Counted from the stretch's first letter, positions 21,359 through 34,943 are shown. The stretch: 64,000 nucleotides of DNA from an uncultured Alphaproteobacteria bacterium (GCA_902553945.1 CACDMT010000002.1:8083-72082); one strand, 5' to 3'. A program made the numbers and translations. The notes: generated from the letters alone by a model not told the origin.

Positions 21359-22411
21359 ATGGAAATTACAATATTAATTTTTTTATTTGGTGGTTTATTT
21401 TTAGGCTGGTCTCTTGGAGCAAATGATGCTGCTAATGTGTTTGGTACTGCGGTTGGAACACGAATGGTAAGTTTCACAAGTGCTGCCATAGTGTGTAGTA
21501 TATTTGTAATACTTGGAGCAATCATAAGTGGTGCTGGAACAACAGAAACACTTGGGAAGCTTGGAGCAATAAATGCATTACCGGGTGCTTTTGCTGCCTG
21601 CGTTGCAGCAGGGATTTCTGTTTACTTAATGACCAAAGTTGGACTGCCAGTTTCTACAACGCAAGCTATTGTAGGAGCTATAGTTGGTTGGAATTTATAT
21701 ACAGGATCATCAACAAACATTCAGGTTCTAATGACGATTTTAGCAACATGGATAATTTGCCCAATCATTGCGGGTATAATCGCAATGGGTTTATTTACGT
21801 TTACAAAAAGAGTTATTCTAAATAGAAAATTACATATTTTACGACTTGATGCATATACAAGAACAGCCTTACTACTTGCTGGTGCATTTGGAGCATATAG
21901 TTTGGGTGCAAATAACATTGCCAATGTTATGGGTGTCTTTGTTCCTATTTCCCCATTTACTGATATTAATATTTCCAACGTATTTATTTTTTCCTCAAAA
22001 GAACAATTGTTTTTACTTGGAGGTTTAGCCATAGCAGTAGGTGTATTCACTTACTCTAAGAGAGTCATGTATACTGTTGGAAATGATTTATTAAAGATGT
22101 CTCCTGTAGCAGCTTTTATTGTTGTTATTTCTCATTCGATCGTTTTATTTTTATTTGCCTCTCAGGGTATTAGTGCTTTTCTTCAATCTATTAACCTTCC
22201 TTCTATTCCGCTTGTTCCTGTTTCCAGTTCGCAAGCTGTTGTTGGAGGTGTTATTGGAATTGGGCTCCTAAAAGGAGGAAAAGAAGTGCAATGGTCCATT
22301 GCGGGAAGAATATCGATGGGATGGGTTACGCTGCCAATAATTGCAGCTCTAATATCTTTGATTATTTTATTTGTTTTAGAAAATATTTTTAATTTAACTG
22401 TTTCGTTTTAA
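21359..22411 (+). CDS. pitA: PiT-family inorganic phosphate transporter
   Basis: 350 aa, polytopic. The PHO4 signatures GANDAANVFGTAVG and GANNIANVMG are present as a duplicated motif. Confidence 0.9.
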   Translation: MEITILIFLFGGLFLGWSLGANDAANVFGTAVGTRMVSFTSAAIVCSIFVILGAIISGAGTTETLGKLGAINALPGAFAACVAAGISVYLMTKVGLPVSTTQAIVGAIVGWNLYTGSSTNIQVLMTILATWIICPIIAGIIAMGLFTFTKRVILNRKLHILRLDAYTRTALLLAGAFGAYSLGANNIANVMGVFVPISPFTDINISNVFIFSSKEQLFLLGGLAIAVGVFTYSKRVMYTVGNDLLKMSPVAAFIVVISHSIVLFLFASQGISAFLQSINLPSIPLVPVSSSQAVVGGVIGIGLLKGGKEVQWSIAGRISMGWVTLPIIAALISLIILFVLENIFNLTVSF

Positions 22412-22932
22412 CTTACTGCTCGGTAAGCAAAAATAAAGTCTTCTTGTATCTTTGACTCAATAGCTCCTTTTCGCCTTGATCGAACTAAATCAATTGCTTC
22501 TTGTTTAGGATAATTAAATTCTACAAGTAAAATGGCAGCTATTGTTCCTGCTCGTCCTTTACCACCACGACAATGTAAAACAATATTTTTTCCATCTATT
22601 AATTCATTTTTAAGAAGTACCTTTGTTGTTTCCCATTTGTATTTAAAATCTTTATCAGGCGCTCCCATGTCGTAAATTGGTAGATGATACCAATGCAACT
22701 TGTGGTCATAAATATTTTTTACAAATAAAGTTTTATCACATAATTTTTCAAATTCACCATCTTCAACAAACGATGTGATAGAGCTGCAGTTATTATTTTT
22801 AAAAAGATTAAGTTCATTATTAAAATGACTTACTTCAAATATTCCGTTTTCATTTAATCCTGGAAATGAAGTTAAGATTATTTTTCCAGCAAAAGATTTC
22901 GAGTCTATAAAATCGTATTCACTAAATTGCAT
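22408..22932 (-). CDS. cysteine (CX5R) phosphatase, dual-specificity/PTP-like
   Basis: 174 aa with the active-site loop VLHCRGGKGRAGT (HCxxGxxR-A/S/T). No signal peptide is visible. The start abuts the stop of the upstream HD gene. Confidence 0.7.
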   Translation of the reverse strand: MQFSEYDFIDSKSFAGKIILTSFPGLNENGIFEVSHFNNELNLFKNNNCSSITSFVEDGEFEKLCDKTLFVKNIYDHKLHWYHLPIYDMGAPDKDFKYKWETTKVLLKNELIDGKNIVLHCRGGKGRAGTIAAILLVEFNYPKQEAIDLVRSRRKGAIESKIQEDFIFAYRAVS

Positions 22933-23502
22933 TTAGGACTTGTTACCGAGAAAGGATTTTCTTGCATCTTCTAAATAAGGTCGAAAATGCTCAACATCTG
23001 GTGTTTTTTTATCAAGAATTTTAGCCATATCATCAAATCTTCTCAGTTCCACAGCTTCATCCATAAATGGTTTGTTTATAAATTCTTCTGCTTCTTCTTT
23101 GGTAAATGGTCCACCTTGAACTTTAAGTGATATTTTAGATGCCTCAGATAAACTGTCATAATACCCATCTTCAACACTTGATAGATATCTTTTTGAAGCA
23201 ACGTGTGCTCTAATAGGTAATATAACTTCTTCTCCAAAATATTTTTTTAAAAAATCAGCACCTAAGTTTTCATGATGACCATCCTTACCTTCATGAATAG
23301 GATCGCCGTCTTCATATACAAGATGTCCCACATCGTGAAGTAAGGCCGCTGCAATTGTTGGGCCAGGCAATTTATGTTGTTCAGCTAATTCAGCACATTG
23401 AAGAGCGTGTTCTAATTGAGTGACATCTTCATTGCCATATTGAATATCCGCTCCTTTAGTCTTCAAAAGATCCAGCAAATAATCTACAATATTTTCTTCC
23501 AT
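22933..23502 (-). CDS. HD-domain protein of the phosphonate-associated PhnZ-like family (mixed-valent di-iron oxygenase candidate)
   Basis: 189 aa. Motifs are QLEHALQCAELA, AALLHDVGH, HENLGADFL, HVASKRYL and LKVQGGP. As I recall the PhnZ sequence, this is its family pattern. It is divergent from phnW. Confidence 0.65.
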   Translation of the reverse strand: MEENIVDYLLDLLKTKGADIQYGNEDVTQLEHALQCAELAEQHKLPGPTIAAALLHDVGHLVYEDGDPIHEGKDGHHENLGADFLKKYFGEEVILPIRAHVASKRYLSSVEDGYYDSLSEASKISLKVQGGPFTKEEAEEFINKPFMDEAVELRRFDDMAKILDKKTPDVEHFRPYLEDARKSFLGNKS

Positions 23503-23540
23503 TCTTAGATAATAATTAACTTATTAGAAAATAATTTCAA

Positions 23541-23574
23541 TTCTAAGTTTTATACGATTGATCAATTTTATAAT
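23541..23574 (+). promoter_or_regulatory. candidate promoter for phnW with a plcP-like upstream element
   Basis: TTCTAAG-TTTT-ATACGAT (23541..23558) is followed after 10 nt by TATAAT (23569..23574). The TTTTATACRAT core is shared with the plcP upstream region (13666..13676). Confidence 0.25.
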
Positions 23575-23599
23575 AATATTTAAGAGGATAATAAGTTTA

Positions 23600-24697
23600 A
23601 TGGATAAAAAATTATTAACCCCAGGTCCTCTTACGACCTCAATGTCCACAAAAGAAGCTATGTTACATGATTGGGGATCAAGAGATAAAAAATTTATTGA
23701 TCTCAATTCATCTATAAGAGAGTCATTAGTTAAATTGATTGAGGGTGAAGATAATTATCAATGTGTTCCAATGCAAGGAAGTGGAACTTTTGCTGTTGAA
23801 TCTATGGTTAGTTCACTTACATCAAAAGACTCAAAGATACTGATTTTAATAAATGGTGCATACGGACAACGTATGAAAAAAATGTGCGCGTACTTAAATA
23901 GAGATTTTATAGAGTATGAAGTTGCAGAACATGAAGTACATGATTTAACTAAAATTGAAGAGCTAATTGATAATAATGAATTAACACATGTTTTCACTGT
24001 CTATTGTGAAACAACATCTGGTATTTTAAATCCTATTGAAGAAATTGCAAAATTAGTTGAATCAAAAAAACTATCTTTATTTATCGATGCCATGAGTGCC
24101 TTTGGGGCGCTACCTCTTAGTGCAAAAAAAATTAGTTTTGATGCGGTAGCTGCATCATCTAATAAATGCTTAGAAGGTGTTCCAGGTGTAGGTTTTATTT
24201 TAGTAAAAAATAATGTTATTCAAAATGCAAAAGGAAATAGTCATTCACTCAGTTTAGATTTGCATGATCAGTGGCAAGCGATGGAAAAAAATAAACAATG
24301 GCGTTTTACACCTCCGACACATGTATTAGCAGCTTTCAATCAAGCTATTAAAGAACATGAAAATGAAGGCGGAGTTCAGGGAAGACATCAAAGATATAAA
24401 AATAATTGTGCAATAATATGTTCCGGTATGAAAGAATTAGGTTTTGAACAATTACTTCCTGATAATTTACAAGCGCCAATTATTATAACTTTTAAACAAC
24501 CTAATGACTCAAGTTTTAATTTTGAAAAATTCTATAATGCACTTAGTGAAAAAAATTTCTTAATTTATCCTGGCAAACTAACTGTTGCTGAAACATTTCG
24601 TATAGGTTGTATTGGTAATTTAAATGAAAATGATATGCACGATACAATAAAAGCTGTTCAAGAAGTAATTCAAGAACTAGGTTTAAAAATTAATTAA
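23600..24697 (+). CDS. phnW: 2-aminoethylphosphonate--pyruvate transaminase
   Basis: The MDKKLLTPGPLTTS start follows an AAGAGGA RBS at 23582..23588. It is a class V aminotransferase with SSNKCLEGVPG (PLP-Lys region), and its length and N-terminus are typical of PhnW. The 14 upstream codons in the ORF track are judged spurious. Confidence 0.8.
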   Translation: MDKKLLTPGPLTTSMSTKEAMLHDWGSRDKKFIDLNSSIRESLVKLIEGEDNYQCVPMQGSGTFAVESMVSSLTSKDSKILILINGAYGQRMKKMCAYLNRDFIEYEVAEHEVHDLTKIEELIDNNELTHVFTVYCETTSGILNPIEEIAKLVESKKLSLFIDAMSAFGALPLSAKKISFDAVAASSNKCLEGVPGVGFILVKNNVIQNAKGNSHSLSLDLHDQWQAMEKNKQWRFTPPTHVLAAFNQAIKEHENEGGVQGRHQRYKNNCAIICSGMKELGFEQLLPDNLQAPIIITFKQPNDSSFNFEKFYNALSEKNFLIYPGKLTVAETFRIGCIGNLNENDMHDTIKAVQEVIQELGLKIN

Positions 24698-24703
24698 TTA
24701 TAA

Positions 24704-25336
24704 ATGACACAAGAAATTGAAATTCCACTAATTCAAGCTACTGATGAAAATCTTAAGGGATACGGTTACTTAATTGATACGTATGAAAAAAGTGAAATTG
24801 AAATTGTTACTTGGCCAAAACAAGGTTGGAGAGATATAGAAGAAGGAACAGGAAATGAAGGAGGAACAACAGAAGGCTCCTTTGATACTTGGTGGCAAGG
24901 TGATACTCTTTATGGACAAAATAATGCTGTTCAACATAAGAGTGATTACGAAGTTGATGGAAAATATATTCTTGGATATTCAACTAATCCTGATAATGAT
25001 TTACAAAAAGAAAATTATCAAACTCCAGATAAAATTTATTTATGGCATGCTAATTATCATCCAGATGGGGGACAACTTTTTTATCCTGAAGAAAAAAAAC
25101 CTTTCATTTGTCCGTTAGCATTACCAACAGATGATATAGAACCAGAACACTTTAAAGCGTTTTATTGTGATGGCTCTAAAGGTCTCTATATTCATCCCAA
25201 TATATGGCATGAGGGCGTCTTCCCTGTATCTGAAAAGCAATCTTTTCAAGGAAAACAGGGAAAAGTTCATGCCCGAGTTAGTATTGATTTAAAAGAAGAG
25301 TTTAATAAATATATTTATTTTAAAACTGAAATTTAA
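24704..25336 (+). CDS. cupin-like protein resembling the ureidoglycolate lyase (AllA) family; function unknown in this context
   Basis: 210 aa. It has the AllA-like patterns YHPDGGQLFYP and LYIHPNIWHEG. Residues H119-x-D121 and H164/H169 (my count) could form a metal site. It starts 7 nt after phnW. Confidence 0.45.
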   Translation: MTQEIEIPLIQATDENLKGYGYLIDTYEKSEIEIVTWPKQGWRDIEEGTGNEGGTTEGSFDTWWQGDTLYGQNNAVQHKSDYEVDGKYILGYSTNPDNDLQKENYQTPDKIYLWHANYHPDGGQLFYPEEKKPFICPLALPTDDIEPEHFKAFYCDGSKGLYIHPNIWHEGVFPVSEKQSFQGKQGKVHARVSIDLKEEFNKYIYFKTEI

Positions 25337-25359
25337 TTAAAATTAACTTAATTTAAATT

Positions 25360-26154
25360 ATGAAAATTATTCATTTATCTGATCCACATATTTATACAGA
25401 TAAAATTCATGGCATTGATCCAGTAAGTAGGTTTAAAAAAGCATTAGATCACATTTTAAAAAATCATAGTGATGCTGATCTATTTGTCATAACAGGTGAT
25501 ATCACAGATCTAGGAGATAAAGAGTCATATCAATTATTTATAAAAATAATTCAAGACGCAAATTTACCTGAACAATTATATCCAAAACTTATAATTGGAA
25601 ATCATGATAACCGTGAAGAATTTAAAAAAAACTTTCCTTCAATACAAGAAGATGAAAATGGTTTTGTTCAATATTTTAAAGATTTAGAAAATAAACGTTT
25701 TATTTTTATAGATACAAATTTAGATGATGAAGATAAAGGTTATTATTGTGAGGATAGACAGGCTTGGCTCAACAAAACTTTAAATCAAACATCTTATGAT
25801 AAGGATATTTATATTTTTATGCATCACAATCCTCTAGCTTTGGTGAAAGAAGAAACTGATGAGATTGGTCTTCAACAAAAAGAAGAATTTAAAAAAATTT
25901 TATTAAGTAGTAAAAAAAATATTAAACATATTTTTTTTGGACATCAGCATATAACAAGCTCCGGTTCGTATTGTAATATAACTTTTTCATCTCCAAGAAG
26001 TACGTGGTTTCCATTGATATCAAATTTTTCAAATCAATACAGACTGGGAACAGCAAATACAGATACAAATTATAATATTGCAATTATTCGATCAGATGGA
26101 ATTATTATTCATACTGAAGATTTTTTAAAAACTGAAGTAAATTGGATTGAATAA
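25360..26154 (+). CDS. calcineurin-like metallophosphoesterase (CpdA/GpdQ-type phosphodiesterase candidate)
   Basis: 264 aa with the complete motif set LSDPHIY, TGDITDLGD, GNHDNRE, MHHNP and GHQH. No signal peptide is visible. Confidence 0.7.
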   Translation: MKIIHLSDPHIYTDKIHGIDPVSRFKKALDHILKNHSDADLFVITGDITDLGDKESYQLFIKIIQDANLPEQLYPKLIIGNHDNREEFKKNFPSIQEDENGFVQYFKDLENKRFIFIDTNLDDEDKGYYCEDRQAWLNKTLNQTSYDKDIYIFMHHNPLALVKEETDEIGLQQKEEFKKILLSSKKNIKHIFFGHQHITSSGSYCNITFSSPRSTWFPLISNFSNQYRLGTANTDTNYNIAIIRSDGIIIHTEDFLKTEVNWIE

Positions 26155-26163
26155 TAAATAAAA

Positions 26164-27270
26164 TTATTTCTTTTCTATAACAAAAATTTCATTATTAAAA
26201 TAAAGACCTTTGTTTTTTGCAACTATATTTTGAACGATCTTTTCATAATTTTTTGTTTTTTCAACTTTCATTACTTTATCATCATCTATTTGATTTACAT
26301 ATATTGATGCATTCCATGCTGAAAAAACTATAGAGGTTGCTATACTTCCACTAATTTCATTTGGTAATGCTCTTAGCTTACATTTAATATTTCTTTTCTC
26401 ACCAAAATATAATTTATTAAGTGTTTCTTTATCCAAATTTTTCTTAAGATATGAAATAATGCTATTGCCAAGAGAAGGAAACGGGTTTTCTTTAGGCCAT
26501 ACTTTTTTAATAATATCATTTGCTGGATCTTTACCAGCAGCATGTATTGTTAATAATTTTCCCTTAGGTTTGAGCGCTCTAATCATTGGCTCAATTACAT
26601 ATTTTACTTTTTTTTCTGCGGATATTCTTGATCTGTATGGTTGAGAAGCTATAATGAGATCAAACTTATTATCAGAATTATTTTTTGTTGGAATTAATTC
26701 ATTTACATTAAATTCTTGGTCTTCTCTATAAATCACCATTACGGAAGGCTCTTTATATGTTGGATTACCTGTTTTTTTATTAACTTCTATATTCCATTTT
26801 TTCTCTAAGAAATCATTTTGACTTCTTAATTGTTGAGCAAATTCAAGTGAGGTATTTCCTTTTAGTTTTATAACATTCCAATTTATTTTTTTCTGTTTAT
26901 TTTCATTTTTAGATTTTAAATTGGCAGCTTCCGCATAATGTAAATTTGAGATTACAAAAACAGTATTCTTGTGTTCCACAAATCTATCAGGTAATTTTTC
27001 TAAACCCAATCTTACATCTTCAATACTAATTTCTTTTGTTGCAACTAACAAAGGAATGGTCGGATTTGCAGAATGGCATTGTCTCATTACATTCATCAAT
27101 AATGATCCATCACCCATGCCTGCATCAAATATTTTTATTCCAGGTTTTACTGGTTTGATTTTATTTACATGAGGACGAATTGCATCAGCAATTTGATTCT
27201 TTTCATTTGTAGTAGTTACGAATAATAAATATTTTTGTCTATTATCGTAAAATCTAAAATTTTTTTTCAT
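26164..27270 (-). CDS. putative class I SAM-dependent methyltransferase with a large insertion
   Basis: 368 aa. It has a motif-I-like IFDAGMGDGSLL, an acidic post-I VATKEIS, a later DLIIASQPY and LKPKGKLL. The assignment is weak. Confidence 0.4.
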   Translation of the reverse strand: MKKNFRFYDNRQKYLLFVTTTNEKNQIADAIRPHVNKIKPVKPGIKIFDAGMGDGSLLMNVMRQCHSANPTIPLLVATKEISIEDVRLGLEKLPDRFVEHKNTVFVISNLHYAEAANLKSKNENKQKKINWNVIKLKGNTSLEFAQQLRSQNDFLEKKWNIEVNKKTGNPTYKEPSVMVIYREDQEFNVNELIPTKNNSDNKFDLIIASQPYRSRISAEKKVKYVIEPMIRALKPKGKLLTIHAAGKDPANDIIKKVWPKENPFPSLGNSIISYLKKNLDKETLNKLYFGEKRNIKCKLRALPNEISGSIATSIVFSAWNASIYVNQIDDDKVMKVEKTKNYEKIVQNIVAKNKGLYFNNEIFVIEKK

Positions 27271-27272: not shown

Positions 27273-28385
27273 TTAGTATAAACCCATTAGTTGAGCAGAC
27301 TTGGTAAAAGATTCTTTATTGCCAATAAAGTTTTTCCCCCGTTCTCCTAAAAACGCATCATCTACTATATTATTCCATTCTTGAACAGGAACTTTTATTT
27401 CATTTAAATTTAAAGGCACATTTAATGAGCGCATGAAATCACTCAATTTGGATGAGCCAACTTCAAGATTACTGTTAAAAATTGATTGTAATCTCTCCTC
27501 AGCAACTGGATCGATGCCAATCATACTCCTTGTAACAATAGGAAGAGTAAAAGAACAAGCAATACCATGCTGAACTCCATAATTAAGAGTAATAGGATAA
27601 GAAAGGTTGTGCGAAATAGCTGTTTTAGTATTTGAAAATGCCAAACCAGCATGAACACATGCACGAGCAATGTTTGAACGTAATTCAACACTTTTAAGAT
27701 CTTTTGATAAAAGTGGTAAATTCTCTAAAACCAATTTCGAAGCTTGAATTGCATGTGATGCTGAAACTGGATTAGCATTAATATTCCATATGCTCTCCAT
27801 GGAATGAGATAATGCATCTAGACCAGTTGATATTGTAAGGCCAAGAGGTTTATCAACCATAATTGATGGATCAATAATTGCTTTTTCTGCATAGAGTGTT
27901 TTATGAGCCAAAGAGAGTTTATTATTTTTTTCTTTATCCCAAATTGTAGCCCAACAAGTAAGCTCACTTGATGTTCCAGAAGTTGTTGGTACGGCAATAA
28001 TTTTTATAGGATTTTCAACCTTTGGACTTTTTTTATTTCTGACAAAATCTGTTAGATATTCTTGATTTTCTTTAAATGCCGCAATAGCTTTTGCTGTATC
28101 AGTCACAGATCCACCACCAATTGCTAAAATATAATCAACATTTTTTTTAATAGAAGAAAATTTTTTTTGAAGTTCCAAAATATCTTTGTAATCAGGGTTG
28201 GGTTGAACTTCTGTCATAATAGCTAAAGGGGGATTTGATGATGTGTTTAATTCATCACTATATTTTTTAAAAATTTCTTCTGGATGCGTGATAATTATAT
28301 AACTTTTATCTTTAAGTGCATTATGTACTTCCTGAAATCTATTTTTACCAAAGATGATTTCTACGGGATTAAAGTAATTCCACAT
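27273..28385 (-). CDS. iron-containing (group III) alcohol dehydrogenase
   Basis: 370 aa with the GGGSVTDTAKAIA nucleotide-binding motif and metal ligand regions (DALSHSMES, HNLSYP, HGIACS). Confidence 0.85.
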   Translation of the reverse strand: MWNYFNPVEIIFGKNRFQEVHNALKDKSYIIITHPEEIFKKYSDELNTSSNPPLAIMTEVQPNPDYKDILELQKKFSSIKKNVDYILAIGGGSVTDTAKAIAAFKENQEYLTDFVRNKKSPKVENPIKIIAVPTTSGTSSELTCWATIWDKEKNNKLSLAHKTLYAEKAIIDPSIMVDKPLGLTISTGLDALSHSMESIWNINANPVSASHAIQASKLVLENLPLLSKDLKSVELRSNIARACVHAGLAFSNTKTAISHNLSYPITLNYGVQHGIACSFTLPIVTRSMIGIDPVAEERLQSIFNSNLEVGSSKLSDFMRSLNVPLNLNEIKVPVQEWNNIVDDAFLGERGKNFIGNKESFTKSAQLMGLY

Positions 28386-28389
28386 TATT

Positions 28390-29469
28390 TTAAATTGATT
28401 TTGCTGCTTTTGATAAAATTGTCATTTTTTCAATTGCCTGTTCTCTTGTAAAAAAACCTAAACCACAATCTGGAGCAGCAATCAAACGATGCTCATCAAT
28501 ATGCTCTAAAGAATCTTTCATTCTAGTTCTAACTTCTTCTACAGATTCCATTCTACTTTTAGCAATATCAATAAATCCAAAAATAACTTTTGTTTTTTTA
28601 AATTTTTCTAAAAGATTTAAATCATTATGTCGGTGAGAATCTTCCAGAGATACAGCATCAATAGTAGAGTCATCAACTAATGTAGCAATTCTATCGTATG
28701 CGTCTAAGTCTGCTTTTTTATATCCTGTTGAGTCAAGAGAGTTCGGATAACCACAACAAATATGACATTCCCTTTGTACATCTTTAGGAATTCCATGCAT
28801 CATTCTTTCTAGGTTTTCCATGCCGTATATATTTGCTTCTTCTGGTTTTCTTGCAAAAACTGGTTCATCAATTTGAATATATTTACATCCAGCATCAACT
28901 AATGCTTTTATTTCTTTATTTAGAGCTAACGCTAAATCAAAACCAAGTTTTTTAAGATCGTCATAGTAGTTATTTGCAATAGAGTCAGTTATTGTCATCG
29001 GACCGGGTAATGTAATCTTAACTGGATTTTTGGTGAATTGTTGAGCGCTTTTCCAATCAAATGGCATGCGTATTTCTTTACTTGATACTGGACCGATTAT
29101 TGTTGGAACATTCGCTTCAAAAGCTCCTTGTCTCACTGATTTGTGAGTTACTTCTTCAAAACTTATATTATTTAAAAAACGACATTGGTGGAAAACATAA
29201 CTTTCTCTTCGTACTTCACCATCCGTTGGAACATCAATACCAGCACTTACTTGATCAAGTATAACTTCTTTAATTGCTTCTAAAAATAAATTTTCTACAT
29301 TATCACCAGCATCCTTTAGTGCTTTTTCGTAAGCACCTGGTGACCAATTTGCTAATAGTCCTTTAGATGCTTTTTTTTCCTCTTCTGATTTTGTACCTAA
29401 GAACCAATCATTGATTGGTGTATTTTTAGGTTTTGGATAAGCACCTATTGTGGTTGTTATAAGTGGCAT
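28390..29469 (-). CDS. MetE C-terminal-domain-like Zn-dependent alkyl/methyltransferase family protein
   Basis: Zn ligands fit the MetE/epoxyalkane-CoM-transferase family (HICCGYP His-x-Cys, and APDCGL Cys). The N-terminus ITTTIGAYPKP is MetE-like. I place the start at MPLITT (29469) because GGAGG sits 5 nt upstream; the ORF-track start at 29496 lacks one. Confidence 0.7.
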   Translation of the reverse strand: MPLITTTIGAYPKPKNTPINDWFLGTKSEEEKKASKGLLANWSPGAYEKALKDAGDNVENLFLEAIKEVILDQVSAGIDVPTDGEVRRESYVFHQCRFLNNISFEEVTHKSVRQGAFEANVPTIIGPVSSKEIRMPFDWKSAQQFTKNPVKITLPGPMTITDSIANNYYDDLKKLGFDLALALNKEIKALVDAGCKYIQIDEPVFARKPEEANIYGMENLERMMHGIPKDVQRECHICCGYPNSLDSTGYKKADLDAYDRIATLVDDSTIDAVSLEDSHRHNDLNLLEKFKKTKVIFGFIDIAKSRMESVEEVRTRMKDSLEHIDEHRLIAAPDCGLGFFTREQAIEKMTILSKAAKSI

Positions 29470-29498
29470 TGTTCCTCCATTAATATTTTTAAACAAGA

Positions 29499-29523: not shown

Positions 29524-29554
29524 CATAAAAAGTTAATAATAAAGTGATCTTAAT

Positions 29555-30808
29555 TTACAGAAGATCGTTTATTTCTTCCATCATCTCTTCTTGAAGATCG
29601 CCCATATCATCAGCGCTACCTGTAGCAATTTCTTCAGTATAATCATAGATTACTTGAGTGATTGCTAATCCGTTTTCACCAGGATATGCGAACCAATCTG
29701 CTAAGAGTGGAAGCTGTTCAACCGCAGTAAGTTTATTTGGATTTGCACTATAGAAATCACCTAATAAATCGTTAGCTGCTTTGTTTGGTGGAACATAACC
29801 AGTTGTCTCAGCAACTAATGCTGCGCCAATACCAGAAGTAATAAACTTCAAGAACGTCCACGCCGCATCAACTCTTGCTGGATCATCAGAAGTAGAAGTT
29901 AACATTGCTGCATTTCCACCTGCTGGTAATCTTGCTGGAGTTCCATTATTTACACCTGCCATTCCAGGGAATGGAGCTGTCTTAAGTACGAAATCTGCTT
30001 TTGCAGCATTTACTGAACCTAAGCTTGAAGTTGACCAGAACATCATACCAATAGTACCTGCATTAAATGCAGCTTGACCATCAGCAATTGAATAGTTAGG
30101 CATATTACAACCGCTCATAATGTCATGCATTTGTTGTAAAGTTTTTAAACCAGCGTCTCCGCCTAAGTTAACTTTTCCATCTTCAACAATTTTAACATTT
30201 TGTGTGTGCATTAAAGCTTGGTGGAACCAGTTACCTGTAATATTCCAACCAAAATATAAAGTGCCACTTCCAGCTGCTTCTAATTTTCCACAAGCATCAA
30301 TAACTTCATCCCAGTTAGTTGGAATGCTGTCTATACCCGCTGCAGCTAATAAATCCATGTTATAGTATCCAACAGGAGTTGATACAGAGAATGGTAAACC
30401 ATAAACTTCTCCTCCAAATGTTGAAAGACTTAACATTGCAGAATGATAACCATCTTTTTCAAAATCAGCTTCTTTTGCAATGAATGGTTCTAAAGATTTT
30501 GCAATACCTTTATCTACTAGAGGAGCTTGTCTGTTAAGACCTTGCATTGTAACATCTGGTAGATTCCCAGAAGTTGCTTCTCTTAAAACTGTAGCAGTTG
30601 CATCTTCATAGTTTTCATAAGTTGCTCTAAATTTTACTTGAATATCTGGATGTGCTTTTTCAAACTCTGGCATAATAGCTTGATAAGTTACATCAAATAA
30701 ACCTGAGTAAGGATAAGCTACTTCTATTTCAATAGACTTCGCTGAATTAACAGAACCATAGAAACCAAAAGCTAATACGGCTGCTAATCCTGTAATTAAT
30801 TTTCTCAT
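29555..30808 (-). CDS. ABC transporter substrate-binding protein, family 1 (UgpB/sugar CUT1-type)
   Basis: 417 aa with a signal peptide (LAAVLAFGFYGSVNSA) and overall SBP_bac_1 architecture. Its composition is richer in Ala/Gly than its neighbours, suggesting high expression. Terminator hairpins flank it on both sides. Confidence 0.8.
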   Translation of the reverse strand: MRKLITGLAAVLAFGFYGSVNSAKSIEIEVAYPYSGLFDVTYQAIMPEFEKAHPDIQVKFRATYENYEDATATVLREATSGNLPDVTMQGLNRQAPLVDKGIAKSLEPFIAKEADFEKDGYHSAMLSLSTFGGEVYGLPFSVSTPVGYYNMDLLAAAGIDSIPTNWDEVIDACGKLEAAGSGTLYFGWNITGNWFHQALMHTQNVKIVEDGKVNLGGDAGLKTLQQMHDIMSGCNMPNYSIADGQAAFNAGTIGMMFWSTSSLGSVNAAKADFVLKTAPFPGMAGVNNGTPARLPAGGNAAMLTSTSDDPARVDAAWTFLKFITSGIGAALVAETTGYVPPNKAANDLLGDFYSANPNKLTAVEQLPLLADWFAYPGENGLAITQVIYDYTEEIATGSADDMGDLQEEMMEEINDLL

Positions 30809-30936: not shown

Positions 30937-30961
30937 AAAAAACCTTGGTTTTTACCAAGGT
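30937..30961 (-). terminator. rho-independent terminator of the phnA-phnY operon (stem includes the phnY stop codon)
   Basis: The minus strand reads ACCTTGGT-AAAA-ACCAAGGT followed by a T5-6 run (30941..30937). Confidence 0.65.
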
Positions 30962-32391
30962 AAAGAAAAGGTTTTAACATTAGTAAAGCTCTTCATCGCT
31001 TCAATGACACCCTCTTTGTATCCCAGTCCCGAGTCTTTAATTCCCCCAAAAGGTGACATTTCAATTCTGTAACCAGGCACTTCCCAAATATTGACAGTTC
31101 CAACATTTAAGTTTTGGATATATTTTTTTGCTCTCATAAAATTATTGGTGCACACACCTGAAGATAATCCAAAAGCAGTTGAATTTGAGATCTTTATGAC
31201 AGATTCATCATCATTGGGAACGCGTATAATTGGAATGACAGGCCCAAAAGTTTCTTCCAATACTAATTCACTTTTAGGATCAACATTATCAATTACTATA
31301 GGAGGCAATAACGCACCTTTTCTTCCAGGATGATATAAAATTTTAGCACCTTCTGCTTCTGCCATTGAAACTCTCTTATCAAATAGTTCAGCTGCTTGAG
31401 CATTAACAACGGTACCTAAATCAGTTTCCATGCTCATTGGATCTCCGAACTTAATTTTTTTAGCTCTTTCCAAAACCATTTCAACAAACTGATCAGCAAT
31501 TTTTTCTTGCACAAGTATTCTTTTAACTGCAGTACAGCGTTGTCCTGAATTTTTTGTTGCACCAGTTACGGCTAATTCAACAGCTTTCTTTAAATCATCT
31601 GAATCTAAATCATTTAAAACAATTAAAGGGTCATTTCCGCCAAGTTCAAGAACGGTTCTTTTGTATCCTGCTTGTTCAGCAATTAGTTTTCCAACACCAA
31701 CACTTCCAGTAAAAGTAATAAGGTCAATATTTGGATTCTTTATCATTTCTGAACCAATATCTTGTGGCCAACCTGTAACAACAGAAAACATTTCAGGGGG
31801 TAGACCAGCTTCATATAAAACATCAGCAAGAACCATTGCTGTTAAGGGAGTTAACTCAGTCTGTTTACAAACAGTACAATTATTCGTTGCAATGGAAGGA
31901 GCAATTTTATGAGCCACCATGTTTAATGGATGATTAAAAGGGGTAATTGCAGAAATTGCTGTTAATGGTTCTCTTATTGTAAATATTTTTCTCGCTTTTC
32001 CATGAGGAGTTAAATCACAAGAAAAAATTTCTCCGTCATCATGAATACAAAGTTGGGCAGTTAAAGAAAAAACATCAAATGCCCTACCGACTTCATATAA
32101 CGAGTCTTGTTTTGAAATCCCAAGCTCTAAAGTAATTATATCAGAAATTTCTTCTTTTCTTTTTACAAGAACCTCAGCAGCTGTTTGAAGAATTTTTTGT
32201 CTTTCATATCGTGTAAGCTTTGGTTGATAGTTTGCAGCAATTTCAAGAGCTTGTCTTGCATGTTCAGCATTTCCTGCAGGAACCGTACCAATGACTTCGC
32301 CTGTAAAAGGATACTCAACATCTATTGTTTTTTCAAAAGTTACTTTTTTGCCAGCAATTCGCATAGCTTCATTAATCATTTTCTTTTCCAT
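30952..32391 (-). CDS. phnY: phosphonoacetaldehyde dehydrogenase (NAD-dependent aldehyde dehydrogenase family)
   Basis: 479 aa ALDH with ELGGNDP and the catalytic Cys in SGQRCTAV. It overlaps the phosphonoacetate hydrolase gene by 1 nt. phnW is in the same neighbourhood (PhnWAY pathway). Confidence 0.7.
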
Positions 32392-33632
32392 TACAGGGCT
32401 CCATTAATTGCATAGTAGAATGCATCATAATTATATAACTGTTTTTCATTATTGTAATTTTGTATTTTTAGATTTGATATAAAAGGCACTTCTCGCTCAT
32501 GCAAACCACCATGAGAACGTAAAGGTTCATTTAATCCAGAAAGATTATGTTTATCTTCCGATGATCCAATGGTCATAAATTCTGAGGACATACATATTAT
32601 ATCACCCATCCGATCAGGAGGAAGATTGTATGTATTGCAACCTTCATCTTTTGTTAACACTACCTCTATATCCTTAATTTCTTTAATTGATTCTATAACG
32701 TCATTAACTTTAGTTTTATCTTCAAGATAAATTGTTGCAAATGAACCTAATGATCCGTGATGAACAACATAAGGATCGGTTATTGGTAAAATAACTTTTG
32801 CTACATTTGGTTCAAATTTTTTATCAAGATAATCTTGTAAAAAAATTGCATTAGGTGAACCATCATCTTTTGATTTTGGTTTCATACCGTGATCAGCTGT
32901 AATAATTATTGATACATCGCCCTTATTTAAAAGACCGATATATTTATCAAACATAGCGTAAAATTTATTAGCCACTTCATTTCCTGGTGCATACTTATGT
33001 TGAATATAATCTGTTGTAGATAAGTACATTATATTTGGTTTAAATTCCTCAAGTAGTTTAACTCCAGCTGCCATAACAAATTCGGAAAGACCCTGAGAGT
33101 ATACTTCCGGTACGGGCATTCCTAACCAGTCATTAACATTATCAATGCCATTATGTTCTTTTGTTGCCTGATCAGATTTTTCGGCTGAAAAACATATTGC
33201 TCGATTATCATCAAATCCTAAACCGTTGCCCAAAAGAGTTCTGAGTTTATCTTTCGCCGTAACAAGAGCAATCTTTGATCCAGAATTATAAAATTTTTCA
33301 AATATTGTTGGTGCACGCATATATTTTGGATCATTCATCATTACTTCTTCCCCTGTTTCAGGAGTGTAAAAAAAATTACCACATATTCCGTGAACAGAAC
33401 TAGGTTGCCCTGTTACTATTGATATATTATTTGGATTTGTAAAACTTGGGATAGCACTATGAACAAGTAAACTCTCTCCATTAGAAATTAATGCATCAAT
33501 ATTGGGTGTAAGATTTAGTTTTGATGCCTCTTCGAGATACTCTTTTTGACTTCCATCCAGACAAATGACTATGGCTGTCTTTGCAAATTTACTTGGGTAT
33601 TCTCTTTTGTTAATTTCTAGGTTTTCGGTCAC
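32391..33632 (-). CDS. phnA: phosphonoacetate hydrolase (alkaline-phosphatase superfamily)
   Basis: 413 aa with a GTG start. Motifs are [21 protein letters not shown] and ITADHGM, typical of the PhnA/nucleotide pyrophosphatase fold. Confidence 0.75.
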
Positions 33633-33809: not shown

Positions 33810-34943
33810 GTGGGAACTATATCACTTAAAAACATTTCAAAATCTTTTGGATCAACTCAGGTATTAAAAAATCTTAATGTAGATATAAAAGATGGAGAAT
33901 TTTTGACTTTAGTTGGTCCTTCTGGTTGTGGTAAATCTACTTTACTTAGAATTATAGCTGGGCTTGAACAACAAACTTCTGGTGATGTTTTAATTGATGA
34001 TAAAGTTGTAAATAAAATTAGGGCAAGTGAACGAGACTTGGCAATGGTTTTCCAATCGTATGCTCTCTATCCTCATCTGACAGTAAGAAGAAATTTAGAA
34101 ACGCCATTAAGACTTCGAGATTATAATTCATTTGAAAGACTACCGTTGATTGGAAATTTTTCTCCAAATAAAAAAAATAAAACTGAATCTATAAATCAAT
34201 TAGTAAACAAAACTTCGGAAACACTTAAAATCTCTGAACTACTAGATAGAAAACCAGGTCAGTTATCTGGAGGTCAGAGACAAAGAGTAGCTCTTGGTCG
34301 TGCAATGGTGCGGGAACCTGTTGCTTTTTTGATGGATGAACCTCTGTCTAATTTGGATGCAGCGTTAAGAGTTCATATGCGCTCCGAATTATCAGAGCTT
34401 CATAATTCACTTAAAACCACTTTTGTATACGTTACTCATGATCAAGCAGAGGCGTTAACGATGTCTTCTCGAATGGCAGTCATGATTGATGGAAATTTAT
34501 TACAATTAGATACTCCGCAGGAAGTATACGATAATCCTTTATCCTTAAGTGTTGCCCAATTCGTTGGAAGTCCTAAAATTAATATTTTTAGTGGTTCATC
34601 AGACTCAAGTGGAATTGTAAATTTTTTAAATCTTAACTTAAAAAGAAAATGTTCAGAAAAAAATCTAGAATTAAGTATTGGTATTAGACCTGAACATTTA
34701 GAAATTACCAATCAAAGCGATGAAAATACTTTTAGTGCAACAGTTGTGTATAGAGAAAATTTAGGATCAGATATTTTCTTTCATGTAAATACAGAAGATG
34801 GAATGAATAGAATCATTGTAAGAGGTATACCACAATTTACAAATGAAATTTCTAATGGCTCAAAAGTAAATATTAAAAGAGTTTCTGATAAAGCTTTATT
34901 ATTCAATAGTGAAGGAAAGAGGATTCAATTTAATAATGCATAA
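33810..34943 (+). CDS. ABC transporter ATP-binding protein, MalK/UgpC-type (CUT1)
   Basis: 377 aa with a GTG start after an AAGGGGAGG RBS. It has Walker [10 protein letters not shown], signature LSGGQRQRV and a C-terminal regulatory/TOBE-like domain. An extra segment of about 18 aa (SFERLPLIGNFSPNKKNK) is present relative to my recollection of MalK. Confidence 0.85.
   Translation: MGTISLKNISKSFGSTQVLKNLNVDIKDGEFLTLVGPSGCGKSTLLRIIAGLEQQTSGDVLIDDKVVNKIRASERDLAMVFQSYALYPHLTVRRNLETPLRLRDYNSFERLPLIGNFSPNKKNKTESINQLVNKTSETLKISELLDRKPGQLSGGQRQRVALGRAMVREPVAFLMDEPLSNLDAALRVHMRSELSELHNSLKTTFVYVTHDQAEALTMSSRMAVMIDGNLLQLDTPQEVYDNPLSLSVAQFVGSPKINIFSGSSDSSGIVNFLNLNLKRKCSEKNLELSIGIRPEHLEITNQSDENTFSATVVYRENLGSDIFFHVNTEDGMNRIIVRGIPQFTNEISNGSKVNIKRVSDKALLFNSEGKRIQFNNA

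What the first reader, a model, noticed from the sequence alone, without database searches (positions are those of the whole stretch)
22933..25336. PhnZ-like HD oxygenase with no PhnY* partner; an AllA-like cupin with an H-x-D...H pattern sits next to phnW
**Seen in the sequence.**
- The HD protein carries the motif series QLEH-LQCA, LLHDVGH, HENLGA, HV-SKRYL and QGGP. As I recall PhnZ, this is its family pattern.
- No 2-oxoglutarate/Fe(II) PhyH-type hydroxylase (PhnY*, TmpA-like) is present anywhere in the 64 kb.
- Directly after the divergent phnW lies a 210-aa cupin-like ORF with YHPDGGQLFYP and LYIHPNIWHEG (H119, D121, H164, H169 by my count).

**Established knowledge.**
- PhnZ-type enzymes cleave 1-hydroxy-phosphonates, which a partner hydroxylase normally supplies.
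- HEPD and MpnS are cupin Fe(II) oxygenases acting on 2-hydroxyethylphosphonate.

**Inference: two testable models.**
- Model (a): the cupin is an unrecognised hydroxylase supplying the HD enzyme.
- Model (b): an all-oxidative route. It would run AEP to PnAA (PhnW), to 2-HEP (Fe-ADH at 27273..28385), to hydroxymethylphosphonate (cupin, HEPD-like), to formate plus Pi (HD enzyme).
- Alternatively, the HD enzyme may use environmentally supplied hydroxy-phosphonates.
Basis: partly seen in the sequence, partly recalled or inferred. Interest (0 to 1): 0.7.

Follow-up and report, generated by a model that had tools for sequence, protein, structure and literature searches.

The report
SAR11 phosphonate island: orphan PhnZ-like oxygenase, AllA-like cupin
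This stretch of a SAR11-type marine genome holds a phosphonate-scavenging gene island in which a PhnZ/TmpB-like iron oxygenase has no hydroxylase gene within 64 kb, and in which a conserved ureidoglycolate-lyase-like protein of unknown reaction rides with phnW, the same protein being the unreported third gene of the tmpA-tmpB operon in roseobacters.

Summary
The 189-aa HD protein (22933-23502, minus strand) has all six di-iron ligands and the YxxE loop of PhnZ/TmpB. No PhyH- or TauD-type oxygenase was found among the ORFs of at least 90 aa that were scanned. The 210-aa ORF after phnW is an AllA-fold cupin with H119, D121, H164 and H169.

The two proposed models are not supported.
- The cupin also sits behind bona fide tmpA-tmpB in roseobacters, with 4-bp gene overlaps, so it is not a simple hydroxylase substitute.
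- Some SAR11 islands carry the HD gene with only a PhnS2T2U2 importer: no cupin, no phnW.
- H119 and H169 are shared with AllA lyases. The fold matches AllA, not HEPD/MpnS.
- The Fe-ADH is PhpC-type, a class shown to oxidise 2-hydroxyethylphosphonate to phosphonoacetaldehyde, and it belongs to an optional cassette.

Best reading: a modular Pho-linked island. The HD enzyme cleaves imported, already hydroxylated phosphonates. PhnW-PhnY-PhnA handle 2-aminoethylphosphonate. The cupin is an uncharacterised accessory enzyme, probably a metal-dependent lyase, recruited to aminophosphonate operons at least four times independently. Its reaction is unresolved. I found no paper describing this link.

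The parts
22408..22932 (-). Dual-specificity/PTP-type phosphatase (174 aa, HCRGGKGRAG P-loop), directly downstream of the HD gene with 0-nt spacing
   Evidence: Pfam PTP-SAK 47.9 bits. Found next to the HD gene in 29 of 37 SAR11-type loci and also in the L084 island variant.
22933..23502 (-). PhnZ/TmpB-family HD-domain mixed-valent di-iron oxygenase (189 aa), specificity unassigned, no hydroxylase partner
   Evidence: TIGR03276 199.6 bits (cut-off 214.6), TmpB model 161.9 and GmPhnZ1 model 155.9 (cut-offs 300). Full-length alignment to 6npa and 4mlm with all ligands. 38-40% id to both.
23503..23600 (.). AT-rich divergent intergenic region between the HD gene and phnW (presumed shared control region)
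   Evidence: Sequence read. The promoter scan found no more sites than in shuffled sequence, so regulation is inferred only from the gene layout.
23558..24697 (+). PhnW, 2-aminoethylphosphonate:pyruvate transaminase (likely true start ATG 23601)
   Evidence: NF010006 515 bits (cut-off 296) and TIGR02326 468 bits (cut-off 401). Start codon reasoning.
24704..25336 (+). 210-aa AllA-fold cupin, a distinct clade of the ureidoglycolate-lyase superfamily. Invariant among orthologues: H115, N117, H119, D121, Q124, H164, W168, H169, E170, Q185, H189, E199
   Evidence: PF04115 40.7 bits over residues 118-182 only. AllA equivalog models score at most 33 bits against cut-offs of 160-315. AF2 pLDDT 92.3. 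Foldseek top hits are AllA 2bdr, 1xsq and 1xsr. Conservation. phnW lies immediately upstream in 32 of 32 SAR11 loci.
25360..26154 (+). Calcineurin-like metallophosphoesterase (SpdA/CpdA-like phosphodiesterase), third gene of the phnW-cupin unit
   Evidence: Pfam Metallophos 65.6 bits. NF050112 189 bits, below its cut-off of 400. Present in 26 of 28 SAR11 islands. Hoeflea L080 has a Phosphodiest-family gene in the same position after the cupin.
26164..27270 (-). 368-aa class I SAM-dependent methyltransferase-like protein (histamine N-methyltransferase-like fold). Not an oxygenase
   Evidence: No Pfam hit above cut-off. AF2 pLDDT 82.6. Foldseek best hits 1jqe and 2aow at E 7e-10, also 4kri. Present in 27 of 28 islands.
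27273..28385 (-). PhpC-type Fe/Zn alcohol dehydrogenase, probably 2-hydroxyethylphosphonate dehydrogenase (HEP to PAA)
   Evidence: TIGR03405 365.6 bits (cut-off 423.7). Function of the class from PMC13576164. Present in 23 of 28 islands.
28390..29496 (-). MetE-like protein (Meth_synt_2 catalytic domain only), part of the optional cassette
   Evidence: Pfam 121 bits. Present in 21 of 28 islands.
29555..30808 (-). UgpB-like periplasmic solute-binding protein
   Evidence: SBP_bac_1 and SBP_bac_8. Weak UgpB hit, 64.5 bits.
30952..32391 (-). PhnY, phosphonoacetaldehyde dehydrogenase
   Evidence: TIGR03250 796 bits (cut-off 636).
32391..33632 (-). PhnA, phosphonoacetate hydrolase (413 aa, alkaline-phosphatase superfamily). 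Assignment by synteny, not by a family scan
   Evidence: This window ORF was not scanned against any profile library. Its counterpart in syntenic locus L001 (75% id) carries precomputed Pfam PF01663 Phosphodiest. Position directly behind phnY. Homologues follow phnY in 23 of 28 islands.
33810..36785 (+). ABC transporter ATPase plus two permeases (Ugp/Mal type), read by eye
   Evidence: ORF translations show Walker A (GPSGCGKST) and the ABC signature (LSGGQ). Not scanned against Pfam. Homologues recur in the related SAR11 loci.

Best explanation
The finding lies in the core of a modular phosphonate-scavenging island of a SAR11-type alphaproteobacterium. The island is embedded among Pho-regulon genes: pstSCAB-phoU-phoBR, ppk, ppx and PhoU_div-PHO4.

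(1) The HD protein is a stand-alone PhnZ/TmpB-family mixed-valent di-iron oxygenase. It most likely cleaves 1-hydroxy-phosphonates taken up ready-made from seawater. The most probable substrate is (R)-1-hydroxy-2-aminoethylphosphonate, giving glycine plus phosphate. It therefore needs no PhnY*/TmpA hydroxylase. This would make it an oxidative counterpart of the ancillary lyase PbfA. The substrate is inferred.

(2) PhnW, PhnY and PhnA degrade 2-aminoethylphosphonate hydrolytically. The optional PhpC-type dehydrogenase feeds 2-hydroxyethylphosphonate into the same route as phosphonoacetaldehyde. The metallophosphoesterase probably frees phosphonates from esters. The family assignments are shown (PhnA by synteny only). 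The ester role is inferred.

(3) The cupin is neither the missing hydroxylase nor HEPD-like. It belongs to a tightly conserved, uncharacterised clade of the ureidoglycolate-lyase (AllA) superfamily. It keeps the AllA residues at canonical cupin metal positions (H119, Q124, H169) and adds H115, D121, H164 and H189. It has been recruited independently into aminophosphonate operons: behind phnW in SAR11, in a betaproteobacterium and in the organism of L087; behind phnY-DUF72 in Arenicellales; behind tmpA-tmpB in roseobacters.

I take the cupin to be a metal-dependent, non-oxidative lyase or isomerase using AllA-type chemistry, in which a C-OH is deprotonated and a leaving group expelled. It would act as an accessory step on a two-carbon aminophosphonate derivative or on a by-product of its breakdown. 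The exact reaction remains unknown.
For: HD family membership:
- Full-length alignments to 6npa and 4mlm, with all ligands and the YxxE loop.
- NCBIfam ranking.

No hydroxylase:
- Pfam scans of the island genes and the other soluble window ORFs and tblastn with a verified TmpA.
- No TmpA-like match in any SAR11 locus. The one precomputed annotation of a syntenic 99-kb contig lists no PhyH or TauD.

HD works without the cupin or PhnW:
- SAR11 island variant L084-L086 holds the HD gene (72% id) + PhnS2, PhnT2 and PhnU2 + the PTPase (in L084, the one contig that reaches that far). The three transporter proteins score 399, 486 and 756 bits, all above their cut-offs.

Precedent for use of environmental R-HAEP:
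- PbfA and PbfF (PMC12366243, PMC10574752).

Cupin and phosphonate genes:
- 32 of 32 SAR11 loci have phnW directly upstream.
- L054 has phnW-cupin with a 4-bp overlap, and L046 has phnY-DUF72-cupin.
- L087 has phnW-cupin next to an HD gene.
- 9 roseobacter-type loci have tmpB-cupin. Of these, 8 also have tmpA. The genes overlap by 4 bp in loci where starts could be called. In the representatives scanned, TmpA scored 585-600 bits (cut-off 400) and TmpB 343-363 bits (cut-off 300).

AllA relationship:
- Profile against PDB finds only AllA, at E 1.5e-14, sharing HPxGxQ and WH.
- Foldseek top five hits are AllA chains, TM 0.63-0.69.
- AllA enzymes are described as Ni2+-binding lyases. The related DUF4867 protein binds Fe at the canonical cupin positions (PMC11968277).

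Fe-ADH role: PMC13576164.

The only unknown core protein is a methyltransferase fold, not an oxygenase.
Against: - No biochemical data exist for the SAR11 HD clade. It scores below the trusted cut-offs of TIGR03276, TmpB and GmPhnZ1, so its substrate is a guess.
- A hydroxylase could be encoded outside the 64 kb.
- The cupin carries an invariant H-x-D...H arrangement plus three more invariant His. That is compatible with an Fe(II) oxygenase site.
- Three lineages pair an HD gene with the cupin and have no hydroxylase (SAR11, L054, L077). This is what model (a) predicts.
- Orthologues with the same invariant residues sit in unrelated contexts. The substrate may therefore not be a phosphonate at all.
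- No metabolite common to PhnW and TmpAB chemistry is evident.
Confidence: 0.55

Rival explanations
1. Model (a): the cupin is an unrecognised O2-dependent hydroxylase that makes the 1-hydroxy-phosphonate for the HD enzyme, replacing PhnY*.
For: - H119-x-D121...H169 is invariant and lies at or near canonical cupin metal positions.
- An HD gene plus the cupin, without any 2OG hydroxylase, occurs in SAR11, in L054 and in L077.
- In SAR11 the cupin is found only inside the phosphonate island.
Against: - The cupin is retained, translationally coupled, behind verified tmpA-tmpB, where a hydroxylase already exists.
- SAR11 islands exist with the HD gene and PhnS2T2U2 but no cupin.
- The cupin occurs without an HD gene in L046.
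- H119 and H169 are AllA-family residues and the fold is AllA.
- Identical active-site residues occur in non-phosphonate contexts.
- No source of reducing equivalents or 2OG-binding signature was identified.
Confidence: 0.08
2. Model (b): an all-oxidative route. AEP to PAA (PhnW), to 2-HEP (Fe-ADH), to hydroxymethylphosphonate (cupin acting like HEPD), to formate plus Pi (HD acting like GmPhnZ1).
For: - All four genes lie within 6 kb.
- The HD protein scores 156 bits on the GmPhnZ1 model.
Against: - PhpC-type enzymes in degradative clusters oxidise HEP to PAA (PMC13576164).
- The Fe-ADH is absent from 5 of 28 islands that keep the cupin and the HD gene, and absent from the tmpAB-cupin operons.
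- PhnY and PhnA already dispose of PAA.
- No HEPD, MpnS or HppE structure is among the 50 fold matches listed.
- The HD protein is far below the GmPhnZ1 cut-off of 300 bits.
Confidence: 0.04
3. The cupin acts on a general, non-phosphonate metabolite, for example a ureidoglycolate-like or glyoxylate/aldehyde hemiaminal adduct. It sits in phosphonate operons only because that metabolite, or a toxic by-product, also arises there.
For: - About 60 residues are invariant across 58 orthologues, with no difference between phn-linked and unlinked copies.
- The tree mixes linked and unlinked copies.
- The Sneathiella context (M20 peptidase + amidohydrolase + NMT1-type ABC) resembles ureide or hydantoin catabolism.
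- One homologue is fused to a Glyoxalase/VOC domain.
- Some homologues have N-terminal extensions that look like organelle transit peptides.
Against: - In streamlined SAR11 genomes the gene was seen only inside the variable phosphonate island, always right after phnW.
- At least four independent captures into phosphonate operons, several with 4-bp overlaps, are hard to explain without a direct role.
- It fails every AllA equivalog model.
Confidence: 0.22
4. The HD enzyme does have a hydroxylase partner, but it is encoded elsewhere in the genome, outside the window.
For: Only 64 kb of a genome that I assume is over 1 Mb was examined. L087, a related non-SAR11 contig, has an unclassified TauD-family gene 4 kb from the HD gene.
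Against: - Known phnY*-phnZ and tmpA-tmpB pairs are adjacent (PMC10574752).
- No such gene appears in about 35 SAR11 loci of up to 20 kb, nor in the Pfam-annotated locus L001, a 20.6-kb stretch of a 99-kb contig.
- The L087 TauD protein matches no NCBIfam model at E 1e-10, including TmpA.
Confidence: 0.08

Closest known systems
PhnZ (HF130_AEPn_1; PDB 4mlm, 4n6w), (R)-1-hydroxy-2-aminoethylphosphonate oxygenase
   Same: Same length and HD fold. Same H...HD...H...H...D di-iron ligands, YxxE loop and H62 equivalent. Alignment over residues 6-179.
   Different: Only 38% identical. Below the TIGR03276 trusted cut-off. No adjacent PhnY*. Sits divergent to phnW and is followed by a PTP-type phosphatase.
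TmpB (Leisingera caerulea; PDB 6npa), (R)-1-hydroxy-2-(trimethylammonio)ethylphosphonate oxygenase
   Same: Best-scoring solved relative (124 bits, 40% id). In roseobacters TmpB is followed by an orthologue of the window's cupin (55-58% id).
   Different: The window protein scores 162 bits against a 300-bit cut-off for the TmpB equivalog. There is no TmpA in the window.
AllA, ureidoglycolate lyase (E. coli 1xsq/1yqc, P. putida 2bdr; PF04115)
   Same: Same cupin fold (Foldseek E 3e-9 to 1e-7). Shared HPxGxQ and WH motifs. Probably the same kind of metal-assisted elimination chemistry (inference; PMC11968277).
   Different: 210 aa against about 160 aa, with an extra conserved N-terminal half (W37, R43, GTGxEGG). 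D121 replaces Leu. Additional invariant H115, H164 and H189. Scores at most 33 bits on AllA equivalog models with cut-offs of 160-315. No purine or allantoin genes nearby in SAR11.
PbfA / PbfF / PbfG 'phosphonate breakdown factors' (Peracchi laboratory)
   Same: Accessory genes found recurrently inside phnW-phnX or phnW-phnY-phnA clusters that widen the substrate range. The PhpC-type ADH of this window is the class described together with PbfG (PMC13576164, PMC12366243).
   Different: Different folds (PLP enzyme, NAD-dependent racemase, Zn-ADH). No cupin or PF04115 member is mentioned in those papers.
DUF4867 (SftX/SqvB, PDB 9gyy)
   Same: An AllA-like cupin that recurs in catabolic clusters where every chemical step is already assigned. 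It binds metal at canonical cupin positions, and its function is still unknown (PMC11968277).
   Different: Distant match only (Foldseek E 5e-4, 12% id). Sulfosugar rather than phosphonate context. 2His-2Glu site.

Membership tests
PhnZ/TmpB-type HD mixed-valent di-iron oxygenases | H...HD...H...H...D metal-ligand set | tested here: met
   H32, H56-D57, H77, H100 and D157 align with the ligands of 4mlm and 6npa. Ligand pattern from PMC8177086.
PhnZ/TmpB-type HD mixed-valent di-iron oxygenases | YxxE substrate-gating loop | tested here: met
   Y22-G-N-E25 aligns with PhnZ Y24/E27 and TmpB Y30/E33 (PMC8177086).
PhnZ/TmpB-type HD mixed-valent di-iron oxygenases | Score above the curated cut-off of TIGR03276, TmpB (NF049941) or GmPhnZ1 (NF052439) | tested here: not met
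   199.6 against 214.6, 161.9 against 300, and 155.9 against 300. The SAR11 clade is a separate, unassigned branch.
PhnZ/TmpB-type HD mixed-valent di-iron oxygenases | Adjacent 2OG/Fe(II) hydroxylase partner (PhnY* or TmpA) | tested here: not met
   No PhyH, TauD or 2OG-FeII_Oxy hit among the scanned ORFs of the 64 kb. tblastn with TmpA was negative.
PhnZ/TmpB-type HD mixed-valent di-iron oxygenases | O2-dependent C-P cleavage of an (R)-1-hydroxy-phosphonate | not testable with these tools
   Needs an enzyme assay.
AllA ureidoglycolate lyase (PF04115, EC 4.3.2.3) | Pfam PF04115 above the gathering score | tested here: met
   40.7 bits against 23, but only residues 118-182 match profile positions 75-139.
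AllA ureidoglycolate lyase (PF04115, EC 4.3.2.3) | NCBIfam AllA equivalog or subfamily cut-offs | tested here: not met
   Best score 32.6 bits. Cut-offs are 160-315.
AllA ureidoglycolate lyase (PF04115, EC 4.3.2.3) | AllA cupin fold with HPxGxQ and WH motifs | tested here: met
   Foldseek top five hits are AllA chains. Motifs aligned.
AllA ureidoglycolate lyase (PF04115, EC 4.3.2.3) | Purine/allantoin catabolic gene context | tested here: not met
   SAR11, roseobacter, L054 and L046 contexts are phosphonate genes. Only the Sneathiella loci show an M20 + amidohydrolase context.
AllA ureidoglycolate lyase (PF04115, EC 4.3.2.3) | Ureidoglycolate to glyoxylate + urea activity | not testable with these tools
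   Needs an enzyme assay.
PhnY*/TmpA-type 2OG/Fe(II) phosphonate hydroxylases (PhyH or TauD/GBBH families) | PhyH or TauD domain in the cupin | tested here: not met
   The cupin hits only PF04115. No PhyH, TauD or other 2OG-oxygenase structure is among the 50 fold matches listed.
HEPD / MpnS / HppE cupin phosphonate oxygenases | Detectable sequence or fold similarity to HEPD, MpnS or HppE | tested here: not met
   The PDB profile search at E up to 1 finds only AllA. None of these enzymes is among the 50 Foldseek matches listed. The protein is a 210-aa single cupin domain; my recollection is that HEPD and MpnS are about twice that size with two cupin domains.
HEPD / MpnS / HppE cupin phosphonate oxygenases | 2-His-1-Glu/Gln Fe(II) site | tested here: inconclusive
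   H119, D121 or Q124, and H169 are invariant. They are largely shared with AllA lyases. The geometry could not be measured.
PhpC-type phosphonoacetaldehyde reductase / HEP dehydrogenase (the Fe-ADH at 27273-28385) | TIGR03405 match and a place in a degradative phn cluster | tested here: inconclusive
   365.6 bits, below the cut-off of 423.7 but far the best model. It lies in a phnY-phnA cluster, as described in PMC13576164.

The most novel reading that the evidence does not exclude
The AllA-like cupin is a new kind of phosphonate-processing metalloenzyme that works with PhnZ/TmpB-type oxygenases. It could create or rearrange the 1-hydroxy-phosphonate substrate without 2-oxoglutarate, or convert hydroxy-aminophosphonates into phosphonoacetaldehyde without PLP. 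Together with the SAR11 HD clade, it would define a PhnY*-independent oxidative route. That route would account for a large share of the 'phnZ' signal in ocean metagenomes.
Probability: 0.15. Interest if true: 0.85.

Novelty: new variant of a known kind. Interest (0 to 1): 0.6.

Why it matters
Marine surveys disagree on how common phnZ is. Estimates range from under 1% of surface bacteria when only characterised clades are counted (PMC8316502) to about 20%, with Pelagibacterales supplying 45% of marine phnZ sequences (PMC9381506, PMC10574752). The HD protein here is a candidate for that gap, which is my inference: it is a SAR11-type PhnZ-like sequence, very abundant in the databases (clusters of 2,704 and 1,194 member sequences), that fits none of the three characterised clades and has no hydroxylase nearby. 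Knowing its substrate would change how phnZ counts are read in phosphorus-cycle models.

Separately, an accessory gene is co-transcribed with phnW in SAR11 and with tmpA-tmpB in roseobacters, an operon described as two-gene. It is a concrete, testable lead of the kind that produced PbfA, PbfF and PbfG. The orthologue in cultivable Ruegeria and Leisingera makes genetics feasible.

Tried and rejected
- Searching genome contigs with the 36-sequence alignment A1 failed because no stretch was conserved enough. The 11-sequence alignment A2 worked.
- An apparent HD-cupin fusion in L058 (394-aa ORF) was rejected. Pfam sees only the cupin, so the N-terminal extension is a spurious start.
- I tested whether the only unknown core protein (26164-27270) could be a cryptic oxygenase. 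It has a SAM-methyltransferase fold.
- I looked for residues distinguishing phn-linked from unlinked cupins. There are none at conserved positions.
- Genes downstream of the cupin in L054, L072, L074 and L080 were uninformative, apart from a phosphodiesterase in L080.
- The promoter and terminator scan of 22300-26300 was no better than shuffled sequence.
- Literature searches for a cupin or ureidoglycolate-lyase link to phosphonates found nothing.
- A search for 'PbfE' returned only materials-science papers.
- The original TmpA/TmpB paper (PMC6503667) is not held. I could not check whether its authors noticed the third gene.
- Predicted-model coordinates are not exposed to scripts. Metal-site geometry could not be measured.
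- The HD homologue search returned only SAR11-like sequences of at least 70% identity among the 120 listed. It gave no view of more distant orphan HD clades.

Full report
WHAT IS THERE

The window has about 30% G+C. Its closest genome matches are single-cell genomes labelled uncultured Alphaproteobacteria and Pelagibacteraceae, so it is a SAR11-type chromosome.

The finding's coordinates cover three ORFs:
- an HD protein at 22933-23502 (-);
- phnW at 23558-24697 (+), whose likely true start is ATG 23601;
- a 210-aa ORF at 24704-25336 (+).

They belong to a larger island:
- DSP/PTP-type phosphatase, 22408-22932 (-);
- the HD protein;
- PhnW (515 bits on NF010006);
- the cupin;
- a calcineurin-like phosphodiesterase, 25360-26154;
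- a 368-aa unknown protein, 26164-27270 (-);
- an Fe-ADH, 27273-28385 (-);
- a MetE-like protein;
- a UgpB-like binding protein;
- PhnY (796 bits on TIGR03250);
- PhnA, 32391-33632 (-), assigned by synteny with L001 rather than by a family scan;
- an ABC transporter, 33810-36785, read by eye.

Around the island lie PhoB, PhoU, PhoR, PstS, Ppx and PhoU_div by Pfam. PstC, PstA, PstB and Ppk I read by eye, and PHO4 by synteny with L001. The setting is phosphate starvation.

CHECKING THE OBSERVATION

The HD protein aligns over its whole length with solved TmpB (6npa, E 7e-35) and PhnZ (4mlm, E 2e-29). It keeps the six di-iron ligands, the YxxE loop and the extra His of LLHDxGH (roles from PMC8177086). 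It is 38-40% identical to both. It falls below the curated cut-offs of all three relevant NCBIfam models: 199.6 against 214.6 for TIGR03276, 162 against 300 for TmpB, and 156 against 300 for GmPhnZ1.

Pfam scans of the island genes and the other soluble ORFs of at least 90 aa found no PhyH, TauD or other 2OG oxygenase. Transporters, PPK, phnA, cysS and a few other genes were read by eye and not scanned. A verified TmpA used as a tblastn query found nothing in the window.

The only core protein without a family is the 368-aa ORF. Its predicted structure (pLDDT 82.6) is a class I SAM methyltransferase, closest to histamine N-methyltransferase. It is not a hidden oxygenase.

THE CUPIN

Pfam sees PF04115 (ureidoglycolate lyase) over residues 118-182 only. 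All AllA equivalog models score at most 33 bits against cut-offs of 160-315.

An exhaustive search found 713 representative relatives at 50% clustering, 393 of them with E at most 1e-10.

Conservation differs with evolutionary distance:
- In a 36-sequence alignment spanning 29-90% identity, H119, W168 and H169 are invariant. P120, D121, Q124, Q185 and H189 are nearly so. H164 is not conserved.
- Among 58 orthologues of at least 50% identity from many lineages, about 60 residues are invariant. They include H115, N117, H119, D121, Q124, H164, W168, H169, E170, Q185, H189 and E199.

A profile search of the PDB finds only AllA (E 1.5e-14). The alignment shows that HPxGxQ and WH are shared with AllA, whereas D121 replaces a Leu.

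The AlphaFold model is confident (pLDDT 92.3). Its best structural matches are the AllA entries 2bdr, 1xsq, 1xsr and 1yqc. DUF4867 follows. HEPD, MpnS, HppE, PhyH and TauD structures are absent from the 50 matches listed.

According to PMC11968277, AllA enzymes are Ni2+-binding lyases, and DUF4867 binds Fe through residues at the canonical cupin positions. Mapping the cupin motifs by eye places N117, H119, Q124 and H169 at those positions. The 'H-x-D...H' pattern is therefore real and conserved. Two of its three residues belong to a lyase family, so the pattern does not by itself indicate an oxygenase.

GENOMIC ASSOCIATION

A scan of one genome per species found at least 585 genomes with a relative. 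The best 80 loci were analysed.

In 37 SAR11-type loci the layout is constant:
- PTPase and HD on one strand, phnW-cupin-phosphodiesterase on the other, then the methyltransferase-like gene and phnY-phnA.
- phnW is directly upstream of the cupin in 32 of 32 loci with enough sequence.
- An HD gene is present in 30 of 32.
- The Fe-ADH and the MetE-like gene are optional (23 and 21 of 28); the binding-protein gene travels with them in the layouts.

Outside SAR11, links to phosphonate genes recur:
- A betaproteobacterial MAG (L054) has phnS2-ABC-phnW-cupin with a 4-bp overlap, opposite HD-phnY-phnA.
- An Arenicellales MAG (L046) has phnY-DUF72-cupin beside phnW.
- L087, an organism with a chemotaxis receptor, has an HD gene divergent from phnW-cupin.
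- Nine loci have an HD gene immediately upstream of the cupin: Leisingera, Ruegeria, Amylibacter and Hoeflea, plus an unclassified alphaproteobacterial MAG (L082). Where gene starts could be called, the genes overlap by 4 bp.

The Leisingera HD is 94-97% identical to crystallised TmpB. In the representatives scanned, the two upstream genes pass the TmpA and TmpB equivalog cut-offs: 585-600 against 400, and 343-363 against 300. A review calls tmpAB a two-gene operon (PMC10574752). In these genomes it is a three-gene unit. One Amylibacter locus (L077) has tmpB-cupin without tmpA.

About 30 of the 44 non-SAR11 loci show no phosphonate genes within 10 kb. Their contexts include:
- M20 peptidase + amidohydrolase + NMT1-type ABC transporter in Sneathiella;
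- Zn-ADH + MFS transporter;
- SDR + class I fumarase-like protein + aldehyde dehydrogenase;
- a GNAT acetyltransferase, a Fic protein, or an SMP-30 protein.

In a neighbour-joining tree the linked and unlinked copies are interleaved. They do not differ at any conserved position.

WHAT THIS MEANS FOR THE TWO MODELS

Model (a) says the cupin replaces PhnY*. Against it:
- the co-occurrence of the cupin with a bona fide TmpA hydroxylase;
- loci with the cupin and no HD gene nearby (L046; L038 is cut by the contig end);
- the AllA fold and motifs;
- a SAR11 island variant (L084-L086) at the same chromosomal position. It contains only an HD gene (72% id) + PhnS2T2U2 + the PTPase (in L084, the one contig that reaches that far). 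The transporter proteins score 399, 486 and 756 bits, all above cut-off. There is no phnW, no cupin and no hydroxylase.

That variant argues that this HD clade works directly on what the transporter imports.

Model (b) says the cupin is HEPD-like and is fed by the Fe-ADH. Against it:
- PhpC-type dehydrogenases in degradative clusters oxidise HEP to phosphonoacetaldehyde for PhnY-PhnA or PhnX (PMC13576164);
- the Fe-ADH cassette is optional;
- there is no resemblance to HEPD or MpnS.

MOST LIKELY FUNCTION

The island is modular.
- Shown: the family assignments, the conserved layout, and the absence of a nearby hydroxylase among the scanned ORFs.
- Inferred: the HD enzyme cleaves ready-made 1-hydroxy-phosphonates, most plausibly (R)-1-hydroxy-2-aminoethylphosphonate. 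This is a natural compound for which other bacteria carry PbfA and PbfF (PMC12366243, PMC10574752). The products would be glycine and phosphate.
- Inferred: the cupin is a metal-dependent lyase or isomerase of the AllA type that serves as an accessory step in aminophosphonate catabolism.

I could not identify a metabolite common to PhnW/PhnY/PhnA and TmpA/TmpB chemistry. Orthologues with identical conserved residues occur elsewhere. A more general substrate, for example an aldehyde or glyoxylate adduct, therefore remains a serious rival. One homologue is fused to a Glyoxalase/VOC domain.

COMPARISON WITH WHAT IS KNOWN, AND NOVELTY

The HD protein is a new, unassigned branch of a known family. 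Surveys already report that Pelagibacterales contribute 45% of marine phnZ sequences and that phnZ co-occurs with phnA (PMC9381506). They did not address the missing hydroxylase.

The PhnW-PhnY-PhnA route and the PhpC-type dehydrogenase are known.

The link between this AllA-like clade and phosphonate operons, including tmpAB, was not found in any paper searched. The original TmpA/TmpB paper could not be read.

VERDICT

The two mechanistic models are not supported. The fallback idea of environmentally supplied hydroxy-phosphonates is the best supported. The cupin is a real and apparently undescribed accessory gene whose reaction is still unknown.

Noticed in passing
window 26164-27270 (-): A 368-aa protein with no Pfam family is predicted to be a class I SAM methyltransferase, closest to histamine N-methyltransferase and phosphoethanolamine N-methyltransferase. 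It is conserved in 27 of 28 SAR11 islands, between the phosphodiesterase and phnY. A small-molecule N-methyltransferase in a catabolic aminophosphonate island is unexpected.
   Followed up: partly
window 27273-30808 (-): The PhpC-type Fe-ADH, a MetE-like protein (Meth_synt_2 domain only) and a UgpB-like binding protein form an optional cassette. The ADH is present in 23 of 28 SAR11 islands. It is absent from L001, L005, L013, L031, L033 and L034.
   Followed up: partly
L050, L053, L072-L074, L041, L080, L082 (about 8200-10600 in each locus): The roseobacter tmpA-tmpB operon, described in a review as a two-gene operon, carries the AllA-like cupin as a third gene. Where starts could be called, the genes overlap by 4 bp. 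A divergent LysR regulator lies upstream. L077 has tmpB-cupin without tmpA.
   Followed up: yes
L084 1595-6719 (also L085, L086): A SAR11 island variant at the same chromosomal site (flanked by EamA on one side and PHO4, PhoU_div, SET, MurJ and TrpRS on the other). It holds only the HD oxygenase, a PhnS2T2U2 transporter and, in L084, the PTP-type phosphatase.
   Followed up: yes
window 22408-22932 (-): A Cys-based dual-specificity/PTP-type phosphatase directly follows the HD gene with no spacer. It travels with the HD gene in both island variants. Its substrate is unknown.
   Followed up: no
protein P0249 (418 aa, from the representative search): One distant homologue of the cupin is fused to a C-terminal Glyoxalase/VOC domain. 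This is a possible hint at aldehyde or hemi(thio)acetal chemistry. It is a single case and could be a gene-calling artefact.
   Followed up: no
proteins P0126 and P0137 (alignment A1): Some homologues of 45% and 42% identity carry N-terminal extensions of about 50-60 residues that look like organelle transit peptides. The family may also occur in eukaryotic plankton.
   Followed up: no
L080 10641-11477 (+), compared with window 25360-26154 (+): In Hoeflea the cupin is followed by a type I phosphodiesterase/NPP-family gene. In SAR11 it is followed by a calcineurin-like phosphodiesterase. These are two unrelated phosphodiesterase folds in the same operon position.
   Followed up: no
L042 and L050/L053: The cupin lies near what I read, from gene sizes and an Aminotran_5 hit only, as a suf iron-sulfur assembly operon. 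It is on the same strand a few genes downstream in Arenicellales L042, and convergent in Leisingera. This may be coincidence.
   Followed up: no
window 298-22411: The island sits among phosphate-starvation genes. By Pfam: PhoB, PhoU, PstS, PhoR, Ppx and PhoU_div. By eye or by synteny with L001: PstC, PstA, PstB, Ppk and PHO4.
   Followed up: partly
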